From assembly GCF_009931435.1 (NCBI RefSeq), contig NZ_CP043414.1: a stretch of DNA of 64,000 bases. One strand, 5' to 3'. Shown piece after piece: positions 40,006-50,812 of this stretch (position 1 is its first letter; every line of letters begins with the position of its first letter). Below the pieces are notes generated by a model. The model was not told the origin of the DNA, did no database searches, and was given only the letters and a program-made list of their open reading frames with translations. The DNA comes from Escherichia coli. Its GTDB lineage: Bacteria > Pseudomonadota > Gammaproteobacteria > Enterobacterales > Enterobacteriaceae. The translations under genes and the position numbers were made by a program.

Positions 40006-41199
40006 TCAAATCTGTCGTAACTGCGCCTCAACATACAAATAGCCAATCCCCAGCACCTGCTGTGCGCGGCTTAATTGCCCAAAGCCAATTTGCGTCGCTT
40101 TCACGCTCGGTCCTTCGTCACGGTCGAACGGGTTAAATCCTGTCTGGCGAATAATGGAATTAAGCCAGTTCTCACCAAAGGCGCAGCTGCGACCATACAG
40201 CCAAATCTGATTAATATTGAGGATATTGAGGAAGTTATACAGACTCAAACCAATGGCGTTGGCACTGCGGTCAACCCAGCTGGTGATCCACGGTTCTCCA
40301 CTCTGCCAGGCAGCGATTAACTGCGCGGTAGTCAGTTTTTCAGGATCAAGCTGAGTATTAACCGGTTGTGATTTTAGCCATACCCGCGCCTGTTTTTTTA
40401 ATGCGCTTAACGAGGCGACGGTTTCCAGGCAGCCATAACGTCCACAGTCGCAGGCGACGCCATCCGGATTAACGATGGTGTGACCAATCTGTCCGCTACC
40501 ATACAAACTGCCGCGATAAATTTGCTCGTTAATCACGAACGACGAGCCAATACCGTAATCAACGTTGATCACGCAGAAATCCCGTCCTTGCGAATTATTT
40601 TGCCATTTCTCCGCCAGCGCCAGCATCACGCAGTCATTATCGACCATCACCCGAATGCCCAGCTTCTCTTCCAGCAGATACTTCACCTCAACCGGTGTTG
40701 TCCACGGCGCTTGCGGCATGGTTTGCGACACGCCAGTCACTGGATCAACCTGACCGTGGATAGCCAGCGCCAGGTTGATGGTACGGTCTGACCACAGTTT
40801 ACGATGGCGATGCCAGCATTTTTCGATTTCGGACAACAGAGCCTGCGGTGTCGGTGCATCAATCTGAAAATACTCAAATTCGCCTTTCGGACTTAAACAG
40901 GCATTAGCGACCTGACACTCAATGCTGGTGGGCGTTACGTTCAGGCACAGCGTCCAGTCACCTTCCGGCGCGATCAGCCATGTACCGCTACTGTGCCCGC
41001 GCGTCTGGCTTTCATCGTCGATATTCACCACCCGCTTTTCGCTTTCCAGTTCCTGCAAAATATTACTGACTGCCGGAATTGAAATTTGCGCCAGCCGGGC
41101 CAGCGTTGATTTATTGGCGCGCTTTTGCCGGTACAGCAGTTCCAGAATCACGCATTTGTTATGGTGGCGGATCTGTTGATTGTTAATGCAGGCTCTCAT
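40006..41199 (-). CDS. yphH: ROK-family (NagC/Mlc-like) transcriptional regulator
   Basis: 397 aa from ATG at 41199 (MRACINNQQIRHHNKCVILELL); ORF track starts two codons upstream (41205); N-terminal wHTH, ROK sugar-kinase-like fold with CxCGxxGC zinc motif (CDCGRYGC). Confidence 0.8.
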   Translation of the reverse strand: MRACINNQQIRHHNKCVILELLYRQKRANKSTLARLAQISIPAVSNILQELESEKRVVNIDDESQTRGHSSGTWLIAPEGDWTLCLNVTPTSIECQVANACLSPKGEFEYFQIDAPTPQALLSEIEKCWHRHRKLWSDRTINLALAIHGQVDPVTGVSQTMPQAPWTTPVEVKYLLEEKLGIRVMVDNDCVMLALAEKWQNNSQGRDFCVINVDYGIGSSFVINEQIYRGSLYGSGQIGHTIVNPDGVACDCGRYGCLETVASLSALKKQARVWLKSQPVNTQLDPEKLTTAQLIAAWQSGEPWITSWVDRSANAIGLSLYNFLNILNINQIWLYGRSCAFGENWLNSIIRQTGFNPFDRDEGPSVKATQIGFGQLSRAQQVLGIGYLYVEAQLRQI

Positions 41200-41316
41200 A
41201 TTCACTAAACCTTGTTTAGTTAATTGCGTGATTATTCCGCGAAAACATTGCCAGATTGTTCAATACACTGCCACAAATCTTTTAATTCAGTATGTCTTGT
41301 TAATATTGAGGGCACC

Positions 41317-44300
41317 ATGACTCCAGTAAAAGTGTGGCAAGAGCGCGTTGAGATCCCGACTTATGAAACAGGTCCGCAGGATATACACCCTATGTTCCTG
41401 GAAAATCGCGTTTATCAGGGATCGTCCGGTGCGGTTTATCCCTACGGCGTGACCGATACGCTGAGCGAGCAGAAAGTCCTGAAATCCTGGCAAGCGGTGT
41501 GGCTGGCAAACGACTATATCAAAGTGATGATCCTGCCGGAGTTGGGCGGTCGGGTGCATCGCGCTTGGGATAAAGTGAAACAGCGCGATTTTGTCTATCA
41601 CAATGAGGTGATTAAACCGGCGCTGGTAGGGCTATTGGGGCCGTGGATTTCGGGCGGGATTGAGTTTAACTGGCCACAACACCATCGCCCGACTACCTTT
41701 ATGCCCGTTGATTTCACCATCGAAGCCCATGAAGACGGCGCACAAACTGTGTGGGTTGGCGAAACGGAGCCGATGCACGGTTTACAGGTGATGACCGGTT
41801 TCACACTACGCCCTGACCGGGCGGCGCTGGAGATTGCCAGCCGCGTCTATAACGGCAATGCCACGCCGCGTCATTTCTTGTGGTGGGCCAACCCGGCAGT
41901 GAAAGGTGGCGAAGGGCATCAGAGCGTTTTCCCGCCGGATGTAACGGCGGTGTTTGATCACGGCAAACGGGCTGTTTCAGCTTTCCCTATCGCTACCGGC
42001 ACTTACTACAAAGTGGACTACTCCGCCGGAGTGGATATTTCTCGCTATAAAAATGTGCCAGTGCCGACTTCGTATATGGCCGAAAAATCGCAGTACGATT
42101 TTGTTGGCGCATGGTGTCACGATGAAGATGGCGGTTTGCTACACGTTGCCAACCACCACATCGCGCCAGGTAAAAAACAGTGGAGCTGGGGACACAGTGA
42201 ATTCGGCCAGGCGTGGGATAAGAGCCTGACCGACAATAACGGCCCGTATATCGAACTGATGACGGGTATTTTTGCCGATAACCAGCCCGATTTTACCTGG
42301 CTTGATGCTTACGAAGAGAAGCGTTTCGAGCAGTATTTCCTGCCTTATCATTCTCTGGGCATGGTGCAAAACGCCTCCCGCGATGCGGTGATTAAACTCC
42401 AGCGTAGTGAGCGGGGGATTGAGTGGGGGCTGTATGCCATCTCCCCGTTGAACGGATACCGGCTGGCGATCCGCGAAATCGGCAGATGCAACGCGTTACT
42501 CGACGATGCCGTGGCTCTGACACCAGCGAACGCCATTCAGGGCGTGTTGCATGGTATCAATCCTGACAGACTAACCATTGAACTCTCCGATACTGACGGC
42601 AATATCGTACTGAGTTATCAGGAACATCAGCCACAAGAGTTGCCGTTGCCGGACGTCGCCAAAGCGCCACTGGCAGCACAAGACATTACTAGTACAGATG
42701 AAGCCTGGTTTATCGGTCAGCATCTGGAGCAATATCATCATGCCAGCCGTTCACCGTTCGATTACTACCTGCGCGGTGTGGCGCTGGATCAGCTGGATTA
42801 TCGCTGTAACCTGGCGTTGGCAATGCTGGAATATAACCGCGCCGATTACCCACAAGCGGTGTCGTATGCCACTCAGGCGCTGAAACGCGCACATGTGCTG
42901 AACAAAAACCCGCAGTGCGGACAGGCGAGTTTGATTCGCGCCAGTGCTTACGAACGTCAGGGGCAATATCAACAAGCCGAAGAGGATTTCTGGCGTGCGG
43001 TCTGGAGCGGAAACAGTAAAGCCGGTGGCTATTATGGTCTGGCACGGCTGGCGGCGCGTAATGGTCACTTCGACGCGGGTCTGGATTTTTGCCAACAAAG
43101 TCTTCGCGCCTGCCCAACCAATCAGGAAGTGCTTTGCCTGCATAACCTGCTGCTGGTGTTAAGTGGTCGTCAGGACAACGCGCGTTTACAGCGAGAGAAG
43201 TTGCTGCGCGATTATCCGCTGAACGCCACCTTTTGGTGGCTGAACTGGTTCGATGGTTGTAGCGAATCTGCCCTCGTACAGTGGCGAGGTCTGTGTCAGG
43301 GACGCGACGTTAACGCCCTGATGACCGCCGGGCAACTGATTAACTGGGGCATGCCCGCTCTGGCGGCAGAGATGCTGAACGCACTGGACTGTCAGCGCAC
43401 GCTACCGCTTTACCTGCAAGCCAGTTTGCTGCCAAAAGCTGAACGCGGAGAACTGGTCGCAAAAGCTATTGATGTCTTCCCGCAGTTTGTCCGTTTCCCT
43501 AATACGCTGGAAGAAGTGGCGGCGCTGGAGAGTATCGAAGAGTGCTGGTTTGCCCGGCATTTACTGGCCTGTTTCTACTACAACAAGCGCAGCTACGGCA
43601 AAGCAATTGCCTTATGGCAACGTTGCGTTGAGATGTCGCCGGAGTTTGCCGACGGCTGGCGTGGGCTGGCAATCCATGCATGGAATAAGCAGCATGATTA
43701 TGAACTGGCCGCGCGTTATCTTGATAGTGCTTATCAGCTTGCGCCGCAGGATGCTCGTCTGCTTTTTGAACGGGATTTGCTGGATAAGCTAACCGGAGCC
43801 GCACCGGAGAAACGACTGGCTCGTCTGGAAAATAATCTGGAAATTGCTCTGAAACGCGACGACATGACCGCAGAACTGCTCAATTTGTGGCATCTCACTG
43901 GTCAGGCAGACAAAGCGGCGGACATTCTCGCCAAGCGCAAATTCCACCCGTGGGAAGGTGGGGAAGGGAAGGTCACCAGCCAGTTTATCCTCAACCAGTT
44001 ATTACGCGCCTGGCAGCATCTTGATGCCAGAGAGCCGCAGCAGGCCAGCGAACTGCTTCATGCCGCGTTGCATTATCCGGAGAATTTAAGCGAAGGCCGT
44101 TTACCGGGGCAAACTGACAACGACATCTGGTTCTGGCAGGCGATATGCGCCAAGGCGCAGGGCGATGAAACTGAAGCGACGCGTTGTTTACGTCTGGCGG
44201 CGACCGGCGATCGCACCATTAACATCCACAGTTATTACAACGATCAGCCGGTTGATTATCTCTTCTGGCAAGGGATGGCGCTGCGATTACTGGGCGAACA

Positions 44301-44598
44301 ACAAACCGCACAGCAACTGTTTAGTGAAATGAAACAGTGGGCACAAGAGATGGCAAAAACCAGTATCGAAGCGGATTTCTTTGCCGTCTCGCAACCTGAC
44401 TTGTTATCGCTGTATGGCGATTTACAACAGCAACATAAAGAAAAATGTCTGATGGTGGCGATGCTGGCGGCTGCGGGATTAGGCGAGATTGCGCAATACG
44501 AATCTGCTCGCGCTGAATTGACGGCGATTAATCCAGCCTGGCCGAAAGCGGCATTATTCACCACCGTGATGCCTTTTATTTTTAGCTACGTTCACTAA
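41317..44598 (+). CDS. yphG: Large uncharacterised protein: N-terminal domain of unknown function plus C-terminal TPR-like repeat array
   Basis: ORF track 1124 aa; start at ATG 41317 (MTPVKVWQERVEIPTYETGPQ, 1093 aa); C-terminal half rich in A/L/W/Y helical repeats typical of TPR. Confidence 0.8.
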   Translation: MTPVKVWQERVEIPTYETGPQDIHPMFLENRVYQGSSGAVYPYGVTDTLSEQKVLKSWQAVWLANDYIKVMILPELGGRVHRAWDKVKQRDFVYHNEVIKPALVGLLGPWISGGIEFNWPQHHRPTTFMPVDFTIEAHEDGAQTVWVGETEPMHGLQVMTGFTLRPDRAALEIASRVYNGNATPRHFLWWANPAVKGGEGHQSVFPPDVTAVFDHGKRAVSAFPIATGTYYKVDYSAGVDISRYKNVPVPTSYMAEKSQYDFVGAWCHDEDGGLLHVANHHIAPGKKQWSWGHSEFGQAWDKSLTDNNGPYIELMTGIFADNQPDFTWLDAYEEKRFEQYFLPYHSLGMVQNASRDAVIKLQRSERGIEWGLYAISPLNGYRLAIREIGRCNALLDDAVALTPANAIQGVLHGINPDRLTIELSDTDGNIVLSYQEHQPQELPLPDVAKAPLAAQDITSTDEAWFIGQHLEQYHHASRSPFDYYLRGVALDQLDYRCNLALAMLEYNRADYPQAVSYATQALKRAHVLNKNPQCGQASLIRASAYERQGQYQQAEEDFWRAVWSGNSKAGGYYGLARLAARNGHFDAGLDFCQQSLRACPTNQEVLCLHNLLLVLSGRQDNARLQREKLLRDYPLNATFWWLNWFDGCSESALVQWRGLCQGRDVNALMTAGQLINWGMPALAAEMLNALDCQRTLPLYLQASLLPKAERGELVAKAIDVFPQFVRFPNTLEEVAALESIEECWFARHLLACFYYNKRSYGKAIALWQRCVEMSPEFADGWRGLAIHAWNKQHDYELAARYLDSAYQLAPQDARLLFERDLLDKLTGAAPEKRLARLENNLEIALKRDDMTAELLNLWHLTGQADKAADILAKRKFHPWEGGEGKVTSQFILNQLLRAWQHLDAREPQQASELLHAALHYPENLSEGRLPGQTDNDIWFWQAICAKAQGDETEATRCLRLAATGDRTINIHSYYNDQPVDYLFWQGMALRLLGEQQTAQQLFSEMKQWAQEMAKTSIEADFFAVSQPDLLSLYGDLQQQHKEKCLMVAMLAAAGLGEIAQYESARAELTAINPAWPKAALFTTVMPFIFSYVH

Positions 44599-44694: not shown

Positions 44695-45678
44695 ATGCCT
44701 AAAAAAATGAGAACAACCCGTAATCTATTATTAATGGCTACGCTATTAGGTAGCACACTATTTGCCAACGCTGCGGAAAAAGAAATGACCATTGGTGCAA
44801 TATACCTTGATACCCAGGGATATTACGCCGGAGTGCGCCAGGGCGTTCAGGATGCGGCAAAAGATTCTTCAGTACAGGTACAGTTAATTGAAACTAACGC
44901 CCAGGGCGATATTTCGAAAGAAAGTACCTTTGTTGATACCCTCGTGGCGCGTAATGTCGATGCCATTATTTTGTCGGCAGTGTCCGAAAATGGCAGTAGC
45001 CGCACCGTTCGCCGCGCCAGTGAGGCGGGTATTCCGGTGATTTGCTACAACACCTGTATTAATCAAAAGGGTGTCGATAAATATGTCTCGGCATATCTGG
45101 TTGGCGATCCGCTGGAATTTGGTAAAAAACTGGGTAACGCTGCCGCAGATTATTTTATTGCCAACAAAATTGACCAGCCGAAAATTGCTGTCATCAATTG
45201 CGAAGCCTTTGAAGTTTGTGTGCAACGACGTAAAGGGTTTGAAGAAGTATTAAAAGCCCGCGTTCCCGGCGCGAAAATTGTCGCTAATCAGGAAGGGACT
45301 GTTTTAGATAAAGCGATTTCTGTTGGTGAAAAACTGATTATCTCCACGCCAGATCTCAACGCCATTATGGGGGAATCGGGTGGAGCGACACTCGGCGCGG
45401 TAAAAGCGGTACGTAATCAAAATCAGGCTGGAAAAATTGCCGTTTTCGGTTCAGATATGACCACTGAAATTGCTCAGGAACTGGAAAATAACCAGGTGCT
45501 GAAAGCGGTAGTGGATATTTCCGGTAAGAAAATGGGCAATGCTGTTTTCGCGCAAACATTGAAGGTTATCAATAAACAAGCCGACGGTGAAAAAGTGATT
45601 CAGGTACCAATCGATCTCTATACCAAAACGGAAGACGGTAAACAGTGGCTGGCAACGCACGTTGATGGTCTGCCCTAA
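44695..45678 (+). CDS. yphF: ABC transporter periplasmic sugar-binding protein (LacI/RbsB-type fold)
   Basis: 327 aa; signal peptide MPKKMRTTRNLLLMATLLGSTLFANA; periplasmic binding protein type I. Confidence 0.85.
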   Translation: MPKKMRTTRNLLLMATLLGSTLFANAAEKEMTIGAIYLDTQGYYAGVRQGVQDAAKDSSVQVQLIETNAQGDISKESTFVDTLVARNVDAIILSAVSENGSSRTVRRASEAGIPVICYNTCINQKGVDKYVSAYLVGDPLEFGKKLGNAAADYFIANKIDQPKIAVINCEAFEVCVQRRKGFEEVLKARVPGAKIVANQEGTVLDKAISVGEKLIISTPDLNAIMGESGGATLGAVKAVRNQNQAGKIAVFGSDMTTEIAQELENNQVLKAVVDISGKKMGNAVFAQTLKVINKQADGEKVIQVPIDLYTKTEDGKQWLATHVDGLP

Positions 45679-45700: not shown

Positions 45701-47212
45701 ATGTTCACGGCAACAGAGGCAGTTCCGGTAGCAAAAGTGGTGGCAGGAAATAAGCGTTACCCCGGCGTCGTTGCGCTGGATAACGTTAACTTTACGCTCA
45801 ATAAAGGCGAAGTTCGCGCGCTGTTAGGCAAAAACGGTGCGGGAAAATCGACCCTCATTCGAATGCTTACCGGTAGCGAACGTCCGGATAGCGGTGATAT
45901 CTGGATTGGCGAGACGCGACTGGAAGGCGACGAAGCTACGCTGACTCGCCGTGCCGCTGAACTGGGGGTACGCGCGGTTTATCAGGAATTAAGTCTGGTG
46001 GAGGGGCTGACGGTGGCGGAAAATCTCTGCCTCGGTCAGTGGCCCCGCCGCAACGGCATGATTGATTACCTGCAAATGGCGCAGGATGCCCAACGTTGCT
46101 TACAGGCGCTGGGCGTCGATGTTAGCCCTGAACAACTTGTTTCGACACTAAGCCCGGCGCAAAAGCAACTGGTGGAAATTGCGCGGGTGATGAAAGGCGA
46201 GCCGCGCGTGGTCATTCTTGATGAACCTACCAGTTCGCTTGCCAGTACGGAAGTTGAACTGGTGATCAGCGCCGTGAAAAAGATGTCGGCACTGGGCGTG
46301 GCGGTGATTTATGTCAGCCACCGAATGGAAGAAATCCGCCGCATTGCCTCCTGTGCCACCGTCATGCGCGATGGTCAGGTGGCGGGCGATGTGATGCTCG
46401 AAAACACCTCAACCCGTCATATTGTGTCGCTGATGCTCGGGCGCGATCACGTTGATCTTGCACCGGTTGTAGCTCAGGAGATTGCGGACCAGACCGTACT
46501 GGAAGTTCGCGCGTTACGCCACAGACCAAAACTTACGGAGATCAGTTTTTCCCTGCGTCGTGGCGAAGTGCTCGGCATTGCTGGCCTGCTGGGGGCAGGG
46601 CGCAGTGAATTGCTGAAGGCGATTGTTGGACTGGAGACGTATGAACAGGGCGAAATTGTTATCAACGGCGAGAAAATCACGCGCCCCGATTACGGCGACA
46701 TGCTGAAACGCGGCATTGGCTATACGCCAGAAAACCGCAAAGAAGCGGGGATCATTCCCTGGCTGGGCGTTGACGAAAATACGGTACTGACCAATCGGCA
46801 AAAAATCAGCGCCAACGGTGTGCTGCAATGGTCCACCATCCGCCGCCTGACCGAAGAGGTGATGCAGCGGATGACGGTCAAGGCCGCCAGTAGCGAAACG
46901 CCCATCGGCACGCTTTCTGGCGGCAATCAGCAAAAAGTGGTGATCGGTCGTTGGGTCTATGCCGCCAGCCAGATTTTATTGCTCGACGAGCCAACGCGCG
47001 GCGTCGATATCGAAGCCAAACAGCAGATTTACCGTATTGTCCGCGAGCTGGCTGCCGAAGGGAAAAGCGTGGTGTTTATCTCCAGTGAAGTGGAGGAGTT
47101 GCCGCTGGTGTGCGACCGCATCCTGTTATTACAGCACGGTACGTTCTCGCAGGAGTTTCACTCGCCGGTCAATGTGGATGAGCTGATGTCCGCCATTCTG
47201 TCTGTGCACTGA
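45701..47212 (+). CDS. yphE: ABC transporter ATP-binding protein, tandem-duplicated ATPase (sugar importer type)
   Basis: 503 aa; two Walker A (GKNGAGKST; second degenerate), two LSGG signature regions. Confidence 0.9.
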   Translation: MFTATEAVPVAKVVAGNKRYPGVVALDNVNFTLNKGEVRALLGKNGAGKSTLIRMLTGSERPDSGDIWIGETRLEGDEATLTRRAAELGVRAVYQELSLVEGLTVAENLCLGQWPRRNGMIDYLQMAQDAQRCLQALGVDVSPEQLVSTLSPAQKQLVEIARVMKGEPRVVILDEPTSSLASTEVELVISAVKKMSALGVAVIYVSHRMEEIRRIASCATVMRDGQVAGDVMLENTSTRHIVSLMLGRDHVDLAPVVAQEIADQTVLEVRALRHRPKLTEISFSLRRGEVLGIAGLLGAGRSELLKAIVGLETYEQGEIVINGEKITRPDYGDMLKRGIGYTPENRKEAGIIPWLGVDENTVLTNRQKISANGVLQWSTIRRLTEEVMQRMTVKAASSETPIGTLSGGNQQKVVIGRWVYAASQILLLDEPTRGVDIEAKQQIYRIVRELAAEGKSVVFISSEVEELPLVCDRILLLQHGTFSQEFHSPVNVDELMSAILSVH

Positions 47213-47236: not shown

Positions 47237-48235
47237 ATGTCTGCTTCGTCATTACCATTGCCGCAGGGCAAGAGCGTCTCGCTCAAACAATTTGTCAGTC
47301 GCCATATTAATGAGATCGGTTTGCTGGTGGTAATCGCCATTCTTTATCTGGTCTTCTCCCTGAATGCGCCTGGCTTTATCTCATTGAATAACCAAATGAA
47401 CGTGCTGCGCGATGCTGCCACCATCGGGATCGCCGCCTGGGCGATGACGCTGATTATTATCTCCGGTGAAATTGATGTCAGCGTTGGACCGATGGTGGCT
47501 TTTGTCTCGGTGTGCCTGGCATTTTTGCTGCAATTTGACGTTCCGCTGGCGATTGCTTGTCTGCTGGTGTTGCTGTTAGGCGCGCTGATGGGGACGCTGG
47601 CCGGCGTGCTGCGCGGCGTGTTTAACGTGCCCAGTTTCGTTGCCACGCTGGGGCTGTGGAGCGCCCTGCGCGGAATGGGGCTGTTTATGACTAACGCCCT
47701 GCCAGTGCCGATTGACGAAAACGAGGTACTGGACTGGCTGGGGGGACAATTTCTCGGTGTGCCAGTATCCGCGCTGATCATGATGGTGTTGTTTGCGCTG
47801 TTTGTGTTCATCAGCCGCAAAACCGCCTTCGGGCGCTCGGTTTTTGCTGTTGGCGGTAATGCGACGGCAGCGCAGTTGTGCGGTATCAACGTTCGTCGGG
47901 TGCGCATTCTTATTTTTACCCTTTCGGGATTATTAGCGGCGGTGACCGGCATTTTGCTGGCAGCTCGCCTCGGTTCTGGTAACGCAGGTGCGGCAAACGG
48001 TCTGGAGTTTGACGTCATCGCTGCGGTCGTGGTCGGCGGTACGGCACTTTCCGGCGGTCGCGGTTCCTTGTTCGGTACGTTGCTTGGTGTGCTGGTGATT
48101 ACGCTAATCGGTAACGGTCTGGTGTTGCTCGGGATTAACTCTTTTTTCCAGCAGGTGGTGCGCGGCGTCATCATCGTGGTGGCGGTTCTGGCGAATATCT
48201 TGCTGACCCAGCGAAGCAGTAAAGCGAAACGCTAA
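47237..48235 (+). CDS. yphD: ABC transporter permease (RbsC/AraH-like)
   Basis: 332 aa polytopic membrane protein. Confidence 0.9.
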   Translation: MSASSLPLPQGKSVSLKQFVSRHINEIGLLVVIAILYLVFSLNAPGFISLNNQMNVLRDAATIGIAAWAMTLIIISGEIDVSVGPMVAFVSVCLAFLLQFDVPLAIACLLVLLLGALMGTLAGVLRGVFNVPSFVATLGLWSALRGMGLFMTNALPVPIDENEVLDWLGGQFLGVPVSALIMMVLFALFVFISRKTAFGRSVFAVGGNATAAQLCGINVRRVRILIFTLSGLLAAVTGILLAARLGSGNAGAANGLEFDVIAAVVVGGTALSGGRGSLFGTLLGVLVITLIGNGLVLLGINSFFQQVVRGVIIVVAVLANILLTQRSSKAKR

Positions 48236-48300
48236 ACCTTAACGCCCCTGGCGCGGGTGCGGCAGGGATGAAAATTAATCGTATTGTTAATGAGGGAATT

Positions 48301-49362
48301 ATGAAAACGATGCTGGCAGCTTATTTACCAGGAAATTCGACCGTCGATCTGCGGGAAGTTGCGGTGCCGACACCGGGGATTAACCAGGTACTGATTAAAA
48401 TGAAATCCTCCGGGATTTGCGGAAGCGATGTCCACTATATCTATCATCAACACCGCGCCACAGCGGCGGCTCCCGATAAACCGTTATACCAGGGATTTAT
48501 CAACGGTCATGAACCGTGCGGGCAAATTGTGGCGATGGGGCAAGGTTGTCGCCATTTTAAAGAGGGCGACCGCGTGCTGGTGTATCACATTTCTGGCTGT
48601 GGTTTTTGCCCGAACTGCCGTCGCGGTTTTCCTATCTCTTGTACTGGCGAAGGAAAAGCTGCTTACGGCTGGCAGCGTGACGGCGGTCATGCTGAATATC
48701 TGCTGGCGGAAGAAAAAGATCTGATCCTCCTGCCGGATGCGTTGAGCTACGAAGATGGTGCGTTTATCAGTTGTGGCGTTGGCACAGCGTATGAAGGGAT
48801 TTTGCGTGGCGAAGTTTCCGGCAGTGATAACGTGCTGGTGGTCGGTCTGGGGCCGGTCGGCATGATGGCGATGATGCTGGCGAAAGGTCGCGGTGCAAAA
48901 AGGATCATCGGCGTTGATATGCTGCCGGAACGTCTGGCGATGGCGAAACAGTTAGGGGTGATGGATCATGGTTATTTAGCAACCACTGAAGGTCTGCCGC
49001 AGATTATCGCCGAACTTACCCACGGCGGCGCGGATGTTGCGCTCGATTGTTCCGGTAATGCCGCAGGTCGCTTACTGGCTTTGCAATCCACCGCTGACTG
49101 GGGACGCGTGGTTTACATCGGAGAAACCGGAAAAGTCGAGTTCGAGGTTAGCGCCGACCTGATGCACCATCAACGGCGGATTATTGGCTCCTGGGTGACC
49201 AGTTTGTTCCATATGGAAAAATGTGCCCATGATTTGACTGACTGGAAACTGTGGCCGCGTAACGCCATTACCCACCGCTTCACGCTGGAACAGGCAGGTG
49301 ATGCCTATGCGCTGATGGCGAGCGGCAAATGCGGGAAAGTTGTGATTAACTTCCCGGATTAA
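48301..49362 (+). CDS. yphC: Zinc-dependent medium-chain alcohol/polyol dehydrogenase
   Basis: Start at ATG 48301 (MKTMLAAYLPGNSTVDL, 353 aa); GICGSDVH and GHEPCG zinc ligand motifs, Rossmann GLGPVG. Confidence 0.85.
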   Translation: MKTMLAAYLPGNSTVDLREVAVPTPGINQVLIKMKSSGICGSDVHYIYHQHRATAAAPDKPLYQGFINGHEPCGQIVAMGQGCRHFKEGDRVLVYHISGCGFCPNCRRGFPISCTGEGKAAYGWQRDGGHAEYLLAEEKDLILLPDALSYEDGAFISCGVGTAYEGILRGEVSGSDNVLVVGLGPVGMMAMMLAKGRGAKRIIGVDMLPERLAMAKQLGVMDHGYLATTEGLPQIIAELTHGGADVALDCSGNAAGRLLALQSTADWGRVVYIGETGKVEFEVSADLMHHQRRIIGSWVTSLFHMEKCAHDLTDWKLWPRNAITHRFTLEQAGDAYALMASGKCGKVVINFPD

Positions 49363-49373
49363 GGAGTCAGCGG

Positions 49374-50246
49374 ATGACCATCTATACCTTATCTCACGGG
49401 CCGCTAAAGCTGGACGTTTCTGACCGGGGCGGCGTCATCGAAGGCTTCTGGCGTGACGTGACGCCGCTCTTACGTCTCGGTAAAAAAAGCGGTGTGGCAA
49501 CCGATGCCTCTTGTTTTCCGCTGGTGCCGTTTGCAAACCGGGTGAGCGGCAACCATTTTGTCTGGCAGGGGCGTGAGTATCAACTGCAACCGAATATTGA
49601 ATGGGATGCGCACTATCTGCACGGCGACGGCTGGCTGGGCGAGTGGCAATGTGTCTCGCGCAGCGATGATAGCTTGTGTCTGGTGTATGAACATCGCAGC
49701 GGTGTTTATCACTATCGGGTAAGTCAGGCGTTTCATTTAACGGCAGATACGCTGACGGTGACGCTCTCTGTCACCAACCAAGGGACAGAGACGCTGCCAT
49801 TTGGTACCGGCTGGCATCCTTATTTTCCGTTGTCACCACAAACGCGGATTCAGGCGCAGGCGAGCGGTTACTGGCTGGAGCGGGAGCAGTGGCTGGCGGG
49901 GGAGTTTTGCAAGCAGCTACCGCAGCAGCTGGATTTCAACCAGCTCGCGCCGTTGCCGCGCCAGTGGGTAAACAATGGCTTTGCCGGATGGAATGGTCAG
50001 GCCCGCATCGAGCAGCCGCAGGAGGGTTATGCCATCATCATGGAAACGACGCCGCCGGCACCGTGTTATTTCATCTTTGTTTCCGATCCGGCGTTTGATA
50101 AAGGATATGCGTTTGATTTCTTCTGTCTGGAACCGATGAGTCATGCGCCGGATGACCATCATCGCCCGGAAGGAGGTGACCTCATTGCGCTTGCGCCGGG
50201 GGAATCAACAACGTCAGAGATGTCGTTGCGGGTTGCGTTACTGTAA
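49374..50246 (+). CDS. yphB: Aldose 1-epimerase (mutarotase) family protein
   Basis: 290 aa; galactose mutarotase-like fold inferred from length and synteny. Confidence 0.8.
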   Translation: MTIYTLSHGPLKLDVSDRGGVIEGFWRDVTPLLRLGKKSGVATDASCFPLVPFANRVSGNHFVWQGREYQLQPNIEWDAHYLHGDGWLGEWQCVSRSDDSLCLVYEHRSGVYHYRVSQAFHLTADTLTVTLSVTNQGTETLPFGTGWHPYFPLSPQTRIQAQASGYWLEREQWLAGEFCKQLPQQLDFNQLAPLPRQWVNNGFAGWNGQARIEQPQEGYAIIMETTPPAPCYFIFVSDPAFDKGYAFDFFCLEPMSHAPDDHHRPEGGDLIALAPGESTTSEMSLRVALL

Positions 50247-50293: not shown

Positions 50294-50716
50294 CTAACGC
50301 CGATCGAGAGAAATTGCCCCCGGCCCGGTAATTGCCAACAGCAGGAATGCGCCAGCGATACTGACATTCTTCCAGAAATTAATCATATTTGGCCCAACCG
50401 CATCGCCGGTCATATCCCAGTAATGGTGACCAATCACCGCCGTACCCAGCGTGTAGAAAATAAACAGCACCGCCAGCGGACGGGTGAAAAAGCCAAGCAC
50501 GATTAAAATCGCGGCGGGCACTTCCATAACTACCGCAATAATCGCTGCCAGCATCGGCATTGGCGCGCCCAGCGAGGCCATATATTGGACCGTACCGTCA
50601 AAGCCCATCATTTTGGGAAAACCAAAAATAATGAAAATTAAGACCACGGCGATACGGGCAATTAATAACAAAACGGGGCGTGCAACACCAAAATCAAAAT
50701 AACGTAGTGAGTTCAT
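50294..50716 (-). CDS. yphA: DoxX-family inner membrane protein
   Basis: Start at ATG 50716 ([18 protein letters not shown], 140 aa); four predicted TM helices. Confidence 0.8.
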
Positions 50717-50812
50717 AACCAATCCCTTTGCAAGATAATGTGATTTAAACGTAATACACACTCTGGCACCTCGCCACGCCCCAGGAGTTGAGATATTCGC
50801 TAATTATCCTGG

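What the first reader, a model, noticed from the sequence alone, without database searches (positions are those of the whole stretch)
41317..44598. YphG: 1093-aa protein with TPR-like C-terminal array embedded in a transporter operon
A cytoplasmic-looking giant protein sits immediately upstream of and co-oriented with the ABC transporter genes (96-bp gap). The N-terminal ~500 aa show no motif I can assign, while the C-terminal ~550 aa contain repeated helical W/Y/A/L-rich units typical of TPR scaffolds. TPR scaffolds inside a sugar-uptake operon are unusual and suggest an enzyme or chaperone-like adaptor of unknown activity.
Basis: seen in the sequence. Interest (0 to 1): 0.5.

Follow-up and report, generated by a model that had tools for sequence, protein, structure and literature searches.

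The report
YphG: altered mutarotase fold plus TPR
The gene is real and is the uncharacterised Escherichia protein YphG, whose front half is a modified copy of a sugar-anomerising enzyme fold and whose back half is a long helical-repeat solenoid; it belongs to a very large family that sits beside sugar transporters and galactose-releasing enzymes in many bacterial phyla, and it is most likely an undescribed sugar-processing enzyme.

Summary
An ORF at 41317-44598 (+) encodes the 1093-aa YphG. It lies 96 bp upstream of yphFEDCB and divergent from the ROK regulator yphH.

Chained weak profile alignments suggest that the mutarotase catalytic Glu is kept (E313, invariant), while the ring-oxygen acid His is an invariant Asn (N192).

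The family is very large: 3,889 clusters at 50% identity and at least 593 species. It is core in E. coli (5422 of 5426 genomes) and under purifying selection in both halves (dN/dS 0.03-0.07).

Across 79 species loci it lies near AraC or ROK regulators (55), sugar transporters (49), GH2_20 or GH35 beta-galactosidases (35 and 9) and mutarotases (18). About a fifth of diverse homologues are exported, some inside polysaccharide utilisation loci. One carries a CBM9-like module.

No characterised member was found in Pfam, NCBIfam, PDB or the literature. The best reading is a cofactor-independent carbohydrate-active enzyme, probably a new glycosidase family acting on a galacto-type glycoside. The activity is inferred, not shown.

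The parts
40006..41205 (-). yphH, a ROK-family (NagC/Mlc-like) transcription regulator, divergent from yphG
   Evidence: ORF. NCBIfam NagC/Mlc hits are below the curated cut-offs. RefSeq annotates it as a 'ROK family protein'. A ROK gene lies within 5 genes of the YphG homologue in 11 of 79 species loci.
41200..41224 (.). Palindrome ATTCACTAAAC-ctt-GTTTAGTTAAT in the yphH-yphG intergenic region. It is a candidate operator (inferred).
   Evidence: Inverted repeat with 11-nt arms, 91% complementary. The core ACTAAACCTTGTT is invariant from this window to Citrobacter and Enterobacter.
41317..44598 (+). yphG coding sequence, 1093 aa plus stop
   Evidence: dN/dS is 0.05-0.07 against E. coli N96, E. 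albertii and Enterobacter.
41329..42351 (+). YphG residues 5-345: DUF5107, an aldose-1-epimerase-like beta supersandwich. This is the most conserved part of the protein and carries the invariant polar residues N65, Y94, N179, N192, Y311 and E313.
42385..42621 (+). YphG residues 357-435: a second, poorly conserved beta-sandwich that links the two halves
   Evidence: Strands in the AF2 model. Mean top-residue frequency is 0.32, against 0.55-0.70 in the first domain.
42694..44592 (+). YphG residues 460-1092: TPR-like alpha solenoid of about 34 helices, with the conserved loop motif F-H-P-W-E-G-G-E-G at 876-884
44695..45678 (+). yphF, periplasmic binding protein of the RbsB/AlsB/MglB (CUT2, monosaccharide-type) class
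   Evidence: NCBIfam hits are all below the curated cut-offs. The PDB relatives are ribose-, galactose- and allose-binding proteins.
45701..47212 (+). yphE, fused two-domain ABC ATPase of the AraG/XylG/MglA type
47237..48235 (+). yphD, single CUT2 permease of the RbsC/AraH type
48268..49362 (+). yphC, Zn-dependent medium-chain dehydrogenase of the polyol/threonine/scyllo-inosose dehydrogenase relatives
   Evidence: The same cluster (c18) also lies next to YphG homologues in two Firmicute loci, L052 and L071.
49374..50246 (+). yphB, a canonical aldose 1-epimerase that keeps the catalytic Arg, His, His and Glu
   Evidence: PDB 3nre, E 5e-200. Catalytic columns R87, H112, H187 and E318 are invariant in alignment A3.

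Best explanation
YphG is a cytoplasmic, cofactor-independent carbohydrate-active enzyme and the first gene of a sugar-utilisation module (regulator, YphG, transporter, mutarotase, and in some versions a Zn-dependent dehydrogenase).

Shown: residues 5-345 form an aldose-1-epimerase-type beta supersandwich. Residues 357-435 are a variable beta linker. Residues 460-1092 are a TPR solenoid. The arrangement of the first ~545 residues (both beta domains and the first TPR helices) matches the crystal structure of the homologue 5cd6. The conserved polar residues are concentrated in the first domain.

Inferred from chained weak alignments: the pocket is the old mutarotase sugar site. The Glu that sits at the anomeric oxygen is kept (E313), and one His is kept (H122/H123). 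The His that protonates the ring oxygen is an invariant Asn (N192). Ring opening would therefore be disabled while chemistry at O1 is retained.

Inferred from gene context and relatives: the substrate is a galacto-configured small glycoside or oligosaccharide brought in by the adjacent transporter (YphFED here; a sugar-porter MFS, CUT1 or MelB-type carrier elsewhere). YphG most likely cleaves it, making it a glycosidase of a family not yet described. YphB then equilibrates the anomer of the released aldose. YphC may oxidise the other product.

The TPR solenoid is proposed to brace or cap the catalytic domain rather than to recruit partner proteins.

For: Active site: alignment A1 of 90 sequences down to 25% identity has invariant N65, Y94, N179, N192, Y311 and E313, and at least 90% conservation of E116, N118, H122, H123, R124, H215, K286, K287, D325 and E333 (D321 89% in the reduced set). 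The divergent 5cd6 keeps E64, N65, Y94, E116, H123, N192, H215, K287, Y311, E313 and D321. The YphG profile against a small mutarotase-like neighbour protein (c45) gives E 2.6e-6 and pairs H122 and N192 with that protein's two His residues. Those His residues align with the GalM/YphB columns H112 and H187, which are invariant in GalM/YphB and correspond, by motif, to the known catalytic His pair. A relaxed hhalign pairs E313 with the GalM column E318, the invariant CLE-motif Glu.

Selection and spread: dN/dS is 0.03-0.07 in both halves. The gene is present in 5422 of 5426 E. coli genomes. There are 3,889 clusters at 50% identity and at least 593 species across Proteobacteria, Bacteroidota, Firmicutes, Actinobacteria and Spirochaetes.

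Context in 79 species loci: AraC 44, ROK 11, any sugar transporter 49, GH2 35, GH35 9, mutarotase 18. The GH2 is subfamily GH2_20 (PDB 8u01, E 1e-181), reported as beta-galactosidase (PMC12243196). GH35, GH97 alpha-galactosidase and MelB were identified. Several Firmicute loci show an AraC gene next to YphG with no other recurrent neighbour, an arrangement I recall as typical of inducible glycosidases.

Exported relatives: about 18 of 90 homologues have signal peptides. One lies in a SusC/SusD locus with sulfatases and GH16, and another lies next to carbohydrate esterases. One has a signal peptide and a C-terminal CBM9-like module. DUF5107 is an indicator orthogroup of phagotrophic protists, listed beside digestive enzymes (PMC8163842).
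Against: No activity has been measured for any member. Pfam still calls the domain a DUF, NCBIfam has no model for it, and I found no paper on its function.

The transporters most often adjacent, CUT2 ABC and sugar-porter MFS, usually carry monosaccharides rather than glycosides. This fits an enzyme that converts a free sugar at least as well as it fits a glycosidase.

The residue equivalences with mutarotase rest on weak alignments (hhalign probabilities 89%, 13% and 4%). I could not superpose coordinates.

The helical half resembles protein-binding TPR scaffolds, not the (alpha/alpha)6 barrels of known glycosidases.

The galactoside theme comes from other phyla. The Escherichia operon itself contains no glycosidase other than, possibly, YphG.

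The window's own allele has A64 where 96% of the family has Glu.
Confidence: 0.4

Rival explanations
1. YphG is a non-hydrolytic sugar-converting enzyme acting on a free monosaccharide imported by YphFED. It could be a specialised mutarotase or ring-form (pyranose/furanose) isomerase, an epimerase or an aldose-ketose isomerase. It could also be a sugar-lactone hydrolase working after YphB (anomer supply) and YphC (acting as an aldose 1-dehydrogenase), so that the operon would make a sugar acid.
Against: The His that performs ring opening in mutarotases appears to be an invariant Asn. A classical mutarotase is already encoded in the same operon. An enzyme of 1093 aa with a 630-aa solenoid is unusual for a monosaccharide isomerase. 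Most loci have no dehydrogenase, kinase or dehydratase that could carry a rare product onward. Exported, PUL-embedded and CBM9-fused relatives share the same invariant residues.
Confidence: 0.25
2. YphG is a non-catalytic sugar-binding adaptor. A degenerate mutarotase domain senses the sugar, and the TPR solenoid docks onto the regulator (YphH or AraC), the transporter ATPase or another partner.
Against: The beta domain is the most conserved part. It has about 45 conserved polar or aromatic positions, including several carboxylates, His and Tyr, which is more than a binding site needs. Relatives with signal peptides, in periplasmic polysaccharide utilisation loci or fused to a CBM, cannot contact cytoplasmic regulators. 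The partner regulator differs between lineages (ROK or AraC) while the solenoid is conserved.
Confidence: 0.15
3. YphG is an exolytic oligosaccharide lyase or epimerase acting on a uronic-acid-containing oligosaccharide, using Tyr/His/Asn/Lys chemistry as in alpha-toroid plus beta-sandwich polysaccharide lyases.
Against: The dominant neighbours are neutral-sugar transporters and galactosidases, not uronate transporters or KduI, KduD and KdgK. The domain order and the helical fold differ from known lyases.
Confidence: 0.08

Closest known systems
PDB 5cd6, BDI_1685 of Parabacteroides distasonis (structural-genomics entry, 'TPR-domain containing protein')
   Different: It is about half the length (575 aa, few TPRs) and only 21-24% identical. 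H122, R124 and K286 are not conserved. No function or publication was found.
Aldose 1-epimerase / galactose mutarotase family (GalM, YeaD, YihR, YphB; Pfam Aldose_epim)
   Different: There is no Pfam or NCBIfam match to the family, and direct profile comparison is not significant. The catalytic acid His is apparently replaced by an invariant Asn. There are many additional invariant residues. YphG is fused to a second beta domain and a 630-aa TPR solenoid, whereas mutarotases are proteins of 270-350 aa.
Carbohydrate-active enzymes whose catalytic or substrate-binding domain is a mutarotase-like supersandwich (GH174 endo-1,3-fucanase, OpgG/OpgD beta-1,2-glucanases, PL4, PL26 and PL40 lyases)
   Different: Their structural scores are much lower than those of true mutarotases. 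There is no sequence relationship. None of them has a TPR solenoid.
lac/gal-type modules (regulator, glycosidase, permease, mutarotase) and E. coli CUT2 sugar operons (rbs, als, mgl, ytf)
   Same: The gene content and order resemble them: a divergent regulator, one large cytoplasmic protein, a transporter and an aldose 1-epimerase. The Enterobacterales variant ROK | YphG - MFS - YphB is the minimal form.
   Different: The large protein is not a member of any known glycosidase family. No kinase or isomerase is encoded. The substrate is unknown: yphFED is listed only as a 'putative' sugar transporter (PMC10305011), and YphH is listed as a transcription factor of unknown function (PMC9308461).

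Membership tests
Pfam DUF5107 (PF17128) | Significant match to the family HMM | tested here: met
   Residues 39-324 match model positions 5-281 of 310, E 2.3e-54, 184.9 bits. RefSeq names the protein accordingly.
Pfam DUF5107 (PF17128) | Architecture typical of the family: DUF5107 followed by TPR repeats | tested here: met
   Most of the 150 best 50%-identity cluster representatives are 1000-1170 aa, and the whole of residues 1-490 aligns. The precomputed Pfam domains of the close homologues are DUF5107 plus TPR. 5cd6 has the same domain order.
Aldose 1-epimerase (galactose mutarotase) family | Beta-supersandwich fold | tested here: met
Aldose 1-epimerase (galactose mutarotase) family | Sequence membership (match to the family profile) | tested here: not met
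   There is no Aldose_epim hit in Pfam and no mutarotase hit in NCBIfam. hhalign against a GalM/YphB alignment aligns only the first strands (E 0.054, probability 1%).
Aldose 1-epimerase (galactose mutarotase) family | Catalytic His (acid to the ring oxygen) and catalytic Glu (base at O1), plus the second His | tested here: inconclusive
   Glu is probably kept: E313 aligns with the GalM Glu (E 0.012). One His is probably kept (H122/H123). The acid His position is occupied by invariant N192, through two chained alignments (E 2.6e-6 and 2e-3). No coordinate superposition was possible with these tools.
Aldose 1-epimerase (galactose mutarotase) family | Mutarotase activity | not testable with these tools
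   This needs polarimetry or NMR exchange spectroscopy on purified protein.
TPR repeat proteins | Helix-turn-helix repeats that match TPR profiles and form a superhelix | tested here: met
Glycoside hydrolases (any CAZy family) | Sequence or fold membership of a described GH family | tested here: not met
   No GH profile was hit. The helical half does not match (alpha/alpha)6 GH barrels. GH supersandwich domains score lower than mutarotases.
Glycoside hydrolases (any CAZy family) | Hydrolysis of a glycosidic bond by a pair of carboxylates | not testable with these tools
   Conserved carboxylates exist (D85, E116, D306, E313, D321, D325, E333, E880), but their geometry and activity are unknown.
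CUT2 monosaccharide ABC uptake operon | RbsB-like binding protein, fused double ATPase and a single RbsC-like permease | tested here: met
   YphF, YphE and YphD match these classes, all below the equivalog cut-offs, so the substrate is not assigned.

The most novel reading that the evidence does not exclude
DUF5107-TPR proteins are a new glycoside hydrolase family whose catalytic domain evolved from an aldose 1-epimerase. The anomeric-oxygen Glu would be kept and the ring-opening His replaced by Asn. The Escherichia yph operon would be a cryptic pathway for a small galactoside such as a galactosyl-polyol: YphFED imports it, YphG cleaves it, YphB equilibrates the released galactose, and YphC oxidises the polyol aglycone.
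Probability: 0.3. Interest if true: 0.7.

Novelty: new variant of a known kind. Interest (0 to 1): 0.5.

Why it matters
YphG is one of the largest proteins of unknown function in E. coli. It is present in essentially every E. coli genome, and its family spans gut, soil and marine glycan degraders and even phagotrophic protists. If the family is a new type of glycosidase derived from a mutarotase, three things would follow. It would add a family to carbohydrate-enzyme classification. It would assign a function to the yph operon, including its transporter and regulator. It would also explain a recurrent gene, with no assigned function, in Bacteroidota and Firmicute galactan and galactoside loci. 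The comparative data here narrow the experiment to a short list of substrates and to two point mutants.

Tried and rejected
1. Literature. Searches for yphG, DUF5107, PF17128/IPR033396/P76585, 5CD6, BDI_1685, b-numbers and the other yph genes gave no functional study. yphG appears only as a Klebsiella PCR marker.

2. NCBIfam gave only weak TPR hits for YphG.

3. Direct profile-profile comparison of YphG with GalM/YphB was not significant. A forced global hhalign gave nonsense (first run). Only the relaxed local run, and the bridge through the small c45 protein, gave usable but weak residue pairings.

5. Domain fusions as function clues. The 1510-aa ORF in L057 is an artefact of my ORF caller in GC-rich DNA. 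P0238 has a C-terminal extension that looks like an endonuclease/exonuclease/phosphatase domain by eye only, and I did not test it. Only the CBM9-like module of P0258 was confirmed.

6. Promoter and terminator scans of the operon were no better than shuffled sequence for promoters.

7. A search for papers combining GH174, GH186 and supersandwich terms found nothing. The precedent of catalytic supersandwich domains therefore rests on my own knowledge.

8. A lactonase role within a YphB-YphC oxidative route was considered and kept only as part of a rival explanation, because most loci lack a dehydrogenase.
Full report
**Observation**

The window contains an ORF at 41224..44598 on the + strand. 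The ATG at 41317 is preceded by GAGGG and gives 1093 aa. RefSeq uses this start for yphG, 'DUF5107 domain-containing protein', and the first Met is nearly invariant in homologues.

The next gene, yphF, starts 96 bp downstream. It is followed by yphE, yphD, yphC and yphB on the same strand. The ROK regulator yphH is divergent. YphG has no signal sequence.

The DNA is 90-95% identical to most E. coli genomes and 98% identical to a few. The protein is 95% identical to that of E. albertii. The window therefore comes from an Escherichia lineage somewhat outside typical E. coli.

yphG is present in 5422 of 5426 complete E. coli genomes. dN/dS against three relatives is 0.03-0.07 in both the N-terminal and the C-terminal half. 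Both halves are therefore under purifying selection.

**Anatomy**

Pfam finds DUF5107 at residues 39-324 (E 2.3e-54) and TPR_16 at 499-560 and 754-813. NCBIfam has no model for the N-terminal part.

The only solved relative by sequence is 5cd6, a structural-genomics protein of unknown function from Parabacteroides (E 3e-20).

An AlphaFold2 model built on 90 diverse homologues is very confident (pLDDT 95.5, pTM 0.93). It has three parts:
- a beta domain at residues 5-345;
- a second small beta domain at 357-435;
- 34 helices from 460 to 1092.

The full-length model superposes on 544 of the 575 residues of 5cd6. This supports the predicted domain packing. Its helical half matches only TPR superhelices such as OGT, SPINDLY, PilF and consensus TPR, and no (alpha/alpha)6 enzyme barrel.

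The 'unassignable' N-terminus is a mutarotase-like domain.

**Active site**

In the 90-sequence alignment (identity to YphG down to 25%), the invariant polar residues all lie in the first beta domain: N65, Y94, N179, N192, Y311 and E313. E116, N118, H122, H123, R124, H215, K286, K287, D325 and E333 are at least 90% conserved (D321 is 89% in the reduced set).

The first domain is the best conserved part (mean top-residue frequency 0.55-0.70). The linker domain is the worst (0.32). The solenoid is intermediate and is conserved mostly at structural Ala, Gly, Leu and Pro positions, apart from a loop motif FHPWEGGEG at 876-884. The divergent 5cd6 keeps eleven of the core residues.

A direct profile comparison with a GalM/YphB alignment is not significant. 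However, a small uncharacterised mutarotase-like protein encoded next to YphG homologues in Paenibacillus and Ruminiclostridium (cluster c45) bridges the two:
- It aligns with the YphG profile at E 2.6e-6. This places YphG H122 and N192 opposite its two His residues.
- Those two His residues align with the GalM/YphB columns H112 and H187, which are invariant in alignment A3 and, by motif (LHG / NHxYF), correspond to the catalytic His pair of mutarotases (E 2e-3).

A relaxed local hhalign pairs E313 with the invariant Glu of the GalM/YphB CLE motif, the catalytic base in characterised mutarotases (E 0.012). The order of the strands in the model is consistent with this.

The inference is that the pocket is the ancestral sugar site, that the Glu next to the anomeric oxygen is retained, and that the His which protonates the ring oxygen is replaced by Asn in every member. 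These pairings are weak, and I could not check them on coordinates.

**Family and context**

A search with residues 1-490 against representatives at 50% identity finds 3,889 clusters (878 below 1e-30). Most are 1000-1170 aa. A scan of one genome per species returned at least 593 species. They include Enterobacterales, Vibrionaceae, Aeromonas, many Bacteroidota, Paenibacillus, Lachnospiraceae, Ruminococcaceae, Bifidobacterium and Spirochaetes.

I called ORFs in the 80 best loci, clustered the neighbours and annotated the recurrent clusters. Within five genes of the YphG homologue, in 79 loci, I found:
- AraC regulator: 44
- ROK regulator: 11
- any sugar transporter: 49 (XylE-like sugar-porter MFS 35, CUT2 ABC 10, CUT1 ABC 6, MelB-type 2)
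- GH2: 35
- GH35 beta-galactosidase: 9
- GH97 alpha-galactosidase: 3
- GalM or YphB-type mutarotase: 18
- YphC-type Zn-dependent dehydrogenase: 5
- SusC/SusD: 11

The GH2 is 1e-181 to PDB 8u01. That is subfamily GH2_20, reported to have beta-galactosidase activity (PMC12243196).

Enterobacterales have two versions. One is ROK | YphG-YphFEDCB, as in this window. The other is a minimal ROK | YphG-MFS-YphB. Bacteroidota typically have AraC | MFS-YphG-GH2, and there the GH2 carries a signal or lipoprotein peptide. Several Firmicutes show an AraC gene adjacent to YphG with no other recurrent neighbour.

**Exported relatives**

About 18 of the 90 aligned homologues carry clear signal peptides. All 90 share the invariant residues. 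One exported homologue sits in a SusC/SusD locus with sulfatases, GH16 and beta-helix proteins. Another sits beside carbohydrate esterases. One has a signal peptide and a C-terminal CBM9-like module.

DUF5107 is also listed as an indicator orthogroup of phagotrophic stramenopiles, alongside digestive enzymes (PMC8163842).

**Interpretation**

The following is shown:
- the gene;
- its domain architecture;
- its fold relationships;
- its conservation;
- its conserved association with sugar uptake, sugar regulators, galactosidases and mutarotases.

The remainder is inferred. A conserved polar pocket, purifying selection, exported relatives in polysaccharide loci, and a CBM fusion all point to a cofactor-independent carbohydrate-active enzyme rather than a passive scaffold. 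Losing the ring-opening His while keeping the O1-proximal Glu is what one would expect if a mutarotase site had been converted to act on a glycosidic oxygen. The module regulator-YphG-permease-mutarotase also resembles lac/gal-type glycoside modules.

I therefore rank a new type of glycosidase acting on a galacto-configured small glycoside first (confidence 0.4). In that model YphB handles the released aldose, and YphC possibly oxidises a polyol aglycone.

The main weakness is that CUT2 and sugar-porter transporters usually carry free monosaccharides. This keeps alive the rival that YphG converts a free sugar, as a ring or anomer isomerase, an epimerase, or a lactonase acting after YphC (0.25). 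A non-catalytic sugar-sensing TPR adaptor (0.15) and a lyase (0.08) are less likely, for the reasons given in the rival entries.

**Comparison with the known**

YphG is a member of Pfam DUF5107 and a homologue of 5cd6, neither of which has a known function. It works on the scaffold of the aldose 1-epimerase family but is not a member of it by sequence, and it probably lacks one catalytic residue. It is not a member of any described glycosidase or lyase family.

The yph operon remains uncharacterised in the literature. yphFED is listed as a 'putative' sugar transporter (PMC10305011), and YphH is listed among E. coli transcription factors of unknown function (PMC9308461).

**Verdict**

This is a real and already-annotated gene of unknown function. 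The new content here is the fold assignment with an altered catalytic set, the size and spread of the family, and the conserved galactoside-linked context. Interest is moderate (0.5). It is a well-defined and widespread orphan family with a short list of decisive experiments, but no activity has been demonstrated.

Noticed in passing
window 41506-41508 (YphG residue 64): This window's YphG has Ala at position 64. Glu is present there in 96% of the family and in every close relative checked, including an E. coli strain that differs at only 8 residues, E. albertii, and the main E. coli cluster. The residue sits in the W-L-E-N-D-Y strand next to invariant N65, so this allele may be impaired.
   Followed up: partly
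window 41200-41224: An 11-nt-arm palindrome (ATTCACTAAAC ctt GTTTAGTTAAT) overlaps the start of yphH in the 111-bp yphH-yphG intergenic region. Its core and two further blocks (TGCGTGATTATT and TTCAGTATGTCTTGTTAA) are conserved out to Citrobacter and Enterobacter. It is a candidate YphH operator.
   Followed up: partly
window 41224-41316: The ORF extends upstream to a TTG and would give 1124 aa. I recall older annotations of YphG being about this length. Homologues start at the ATG at 41317, so the extension is probably not translated.
   Followed up: partly
window 44550-44583: A terminator-like hairpin (8 pairs, 3 of them G-C) followed by a T-run lies inside the last codons of yphG, just before the 96-bp gap to yphF. 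It could attenuate read-through into the transporter genes. The scan as a whole found 22 such sites against 13.0 +/- 3.6 in shuffled sequence, so this single weak hairpin may still be a chance match.
   Followed up: no
whole window; region 41317-44598 tested: The DNA is 90-95% identical to 5401 of 5422 E. coli genomes but 97-98% identical to a handful of records labelled E. coli. The window probably comes from a cryptic Escherichia clade or a sister species rather than typical E. coli.
   Followed up: no
L039:13318-14289, and the c45 proteins encoded next to the YphG homologue in L033 (332 aa, minus strand, immediately upstream beyond the AraC gene): A protein family of about 324-332 aa is encoded next to YphG homologues in Paenibacillus and Ruminiclostridium. 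Its only Pfam hit is a weak N-terminal DUF5107 match. It keeps both mutarotase His residues and is intermediate in sequence between DUF5107 and aldose 1-epimerases.
   Followed up: partly
L023:4013-7887, L071:4070-7176, L052:11101-12120: In some Firmicutes the YphG homologue is followed by a small cupin-like protein (weak ureidoglycolate-lyase-like hits), a dehydrogenase, and in L023 an IlvD/Edd-type sugar-acid dehydratase. This hints at an oxidative sugar route in those lineages.
   Followed up: partly
proteins P0002 (955 aa), P0030 (741 aa), P0042 (643 aa): Some E. coli genome records encode truncated YphG proteins that are 97-98% identical over the aligned part. The gene is therefore disrupted in a minority of strains although it is nearly universal.
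   Followed up: no
window 50294-50761 (-), yphA: The DoxX-family membrane protein downstream of the operon gives a sub-threshold hit to the HvfX Cu-binding RiPP maturation family (E 2.5e-10, 40.8 bits against a cut-off of 80). It is probably unrelated to yphG.
   Followed up: no
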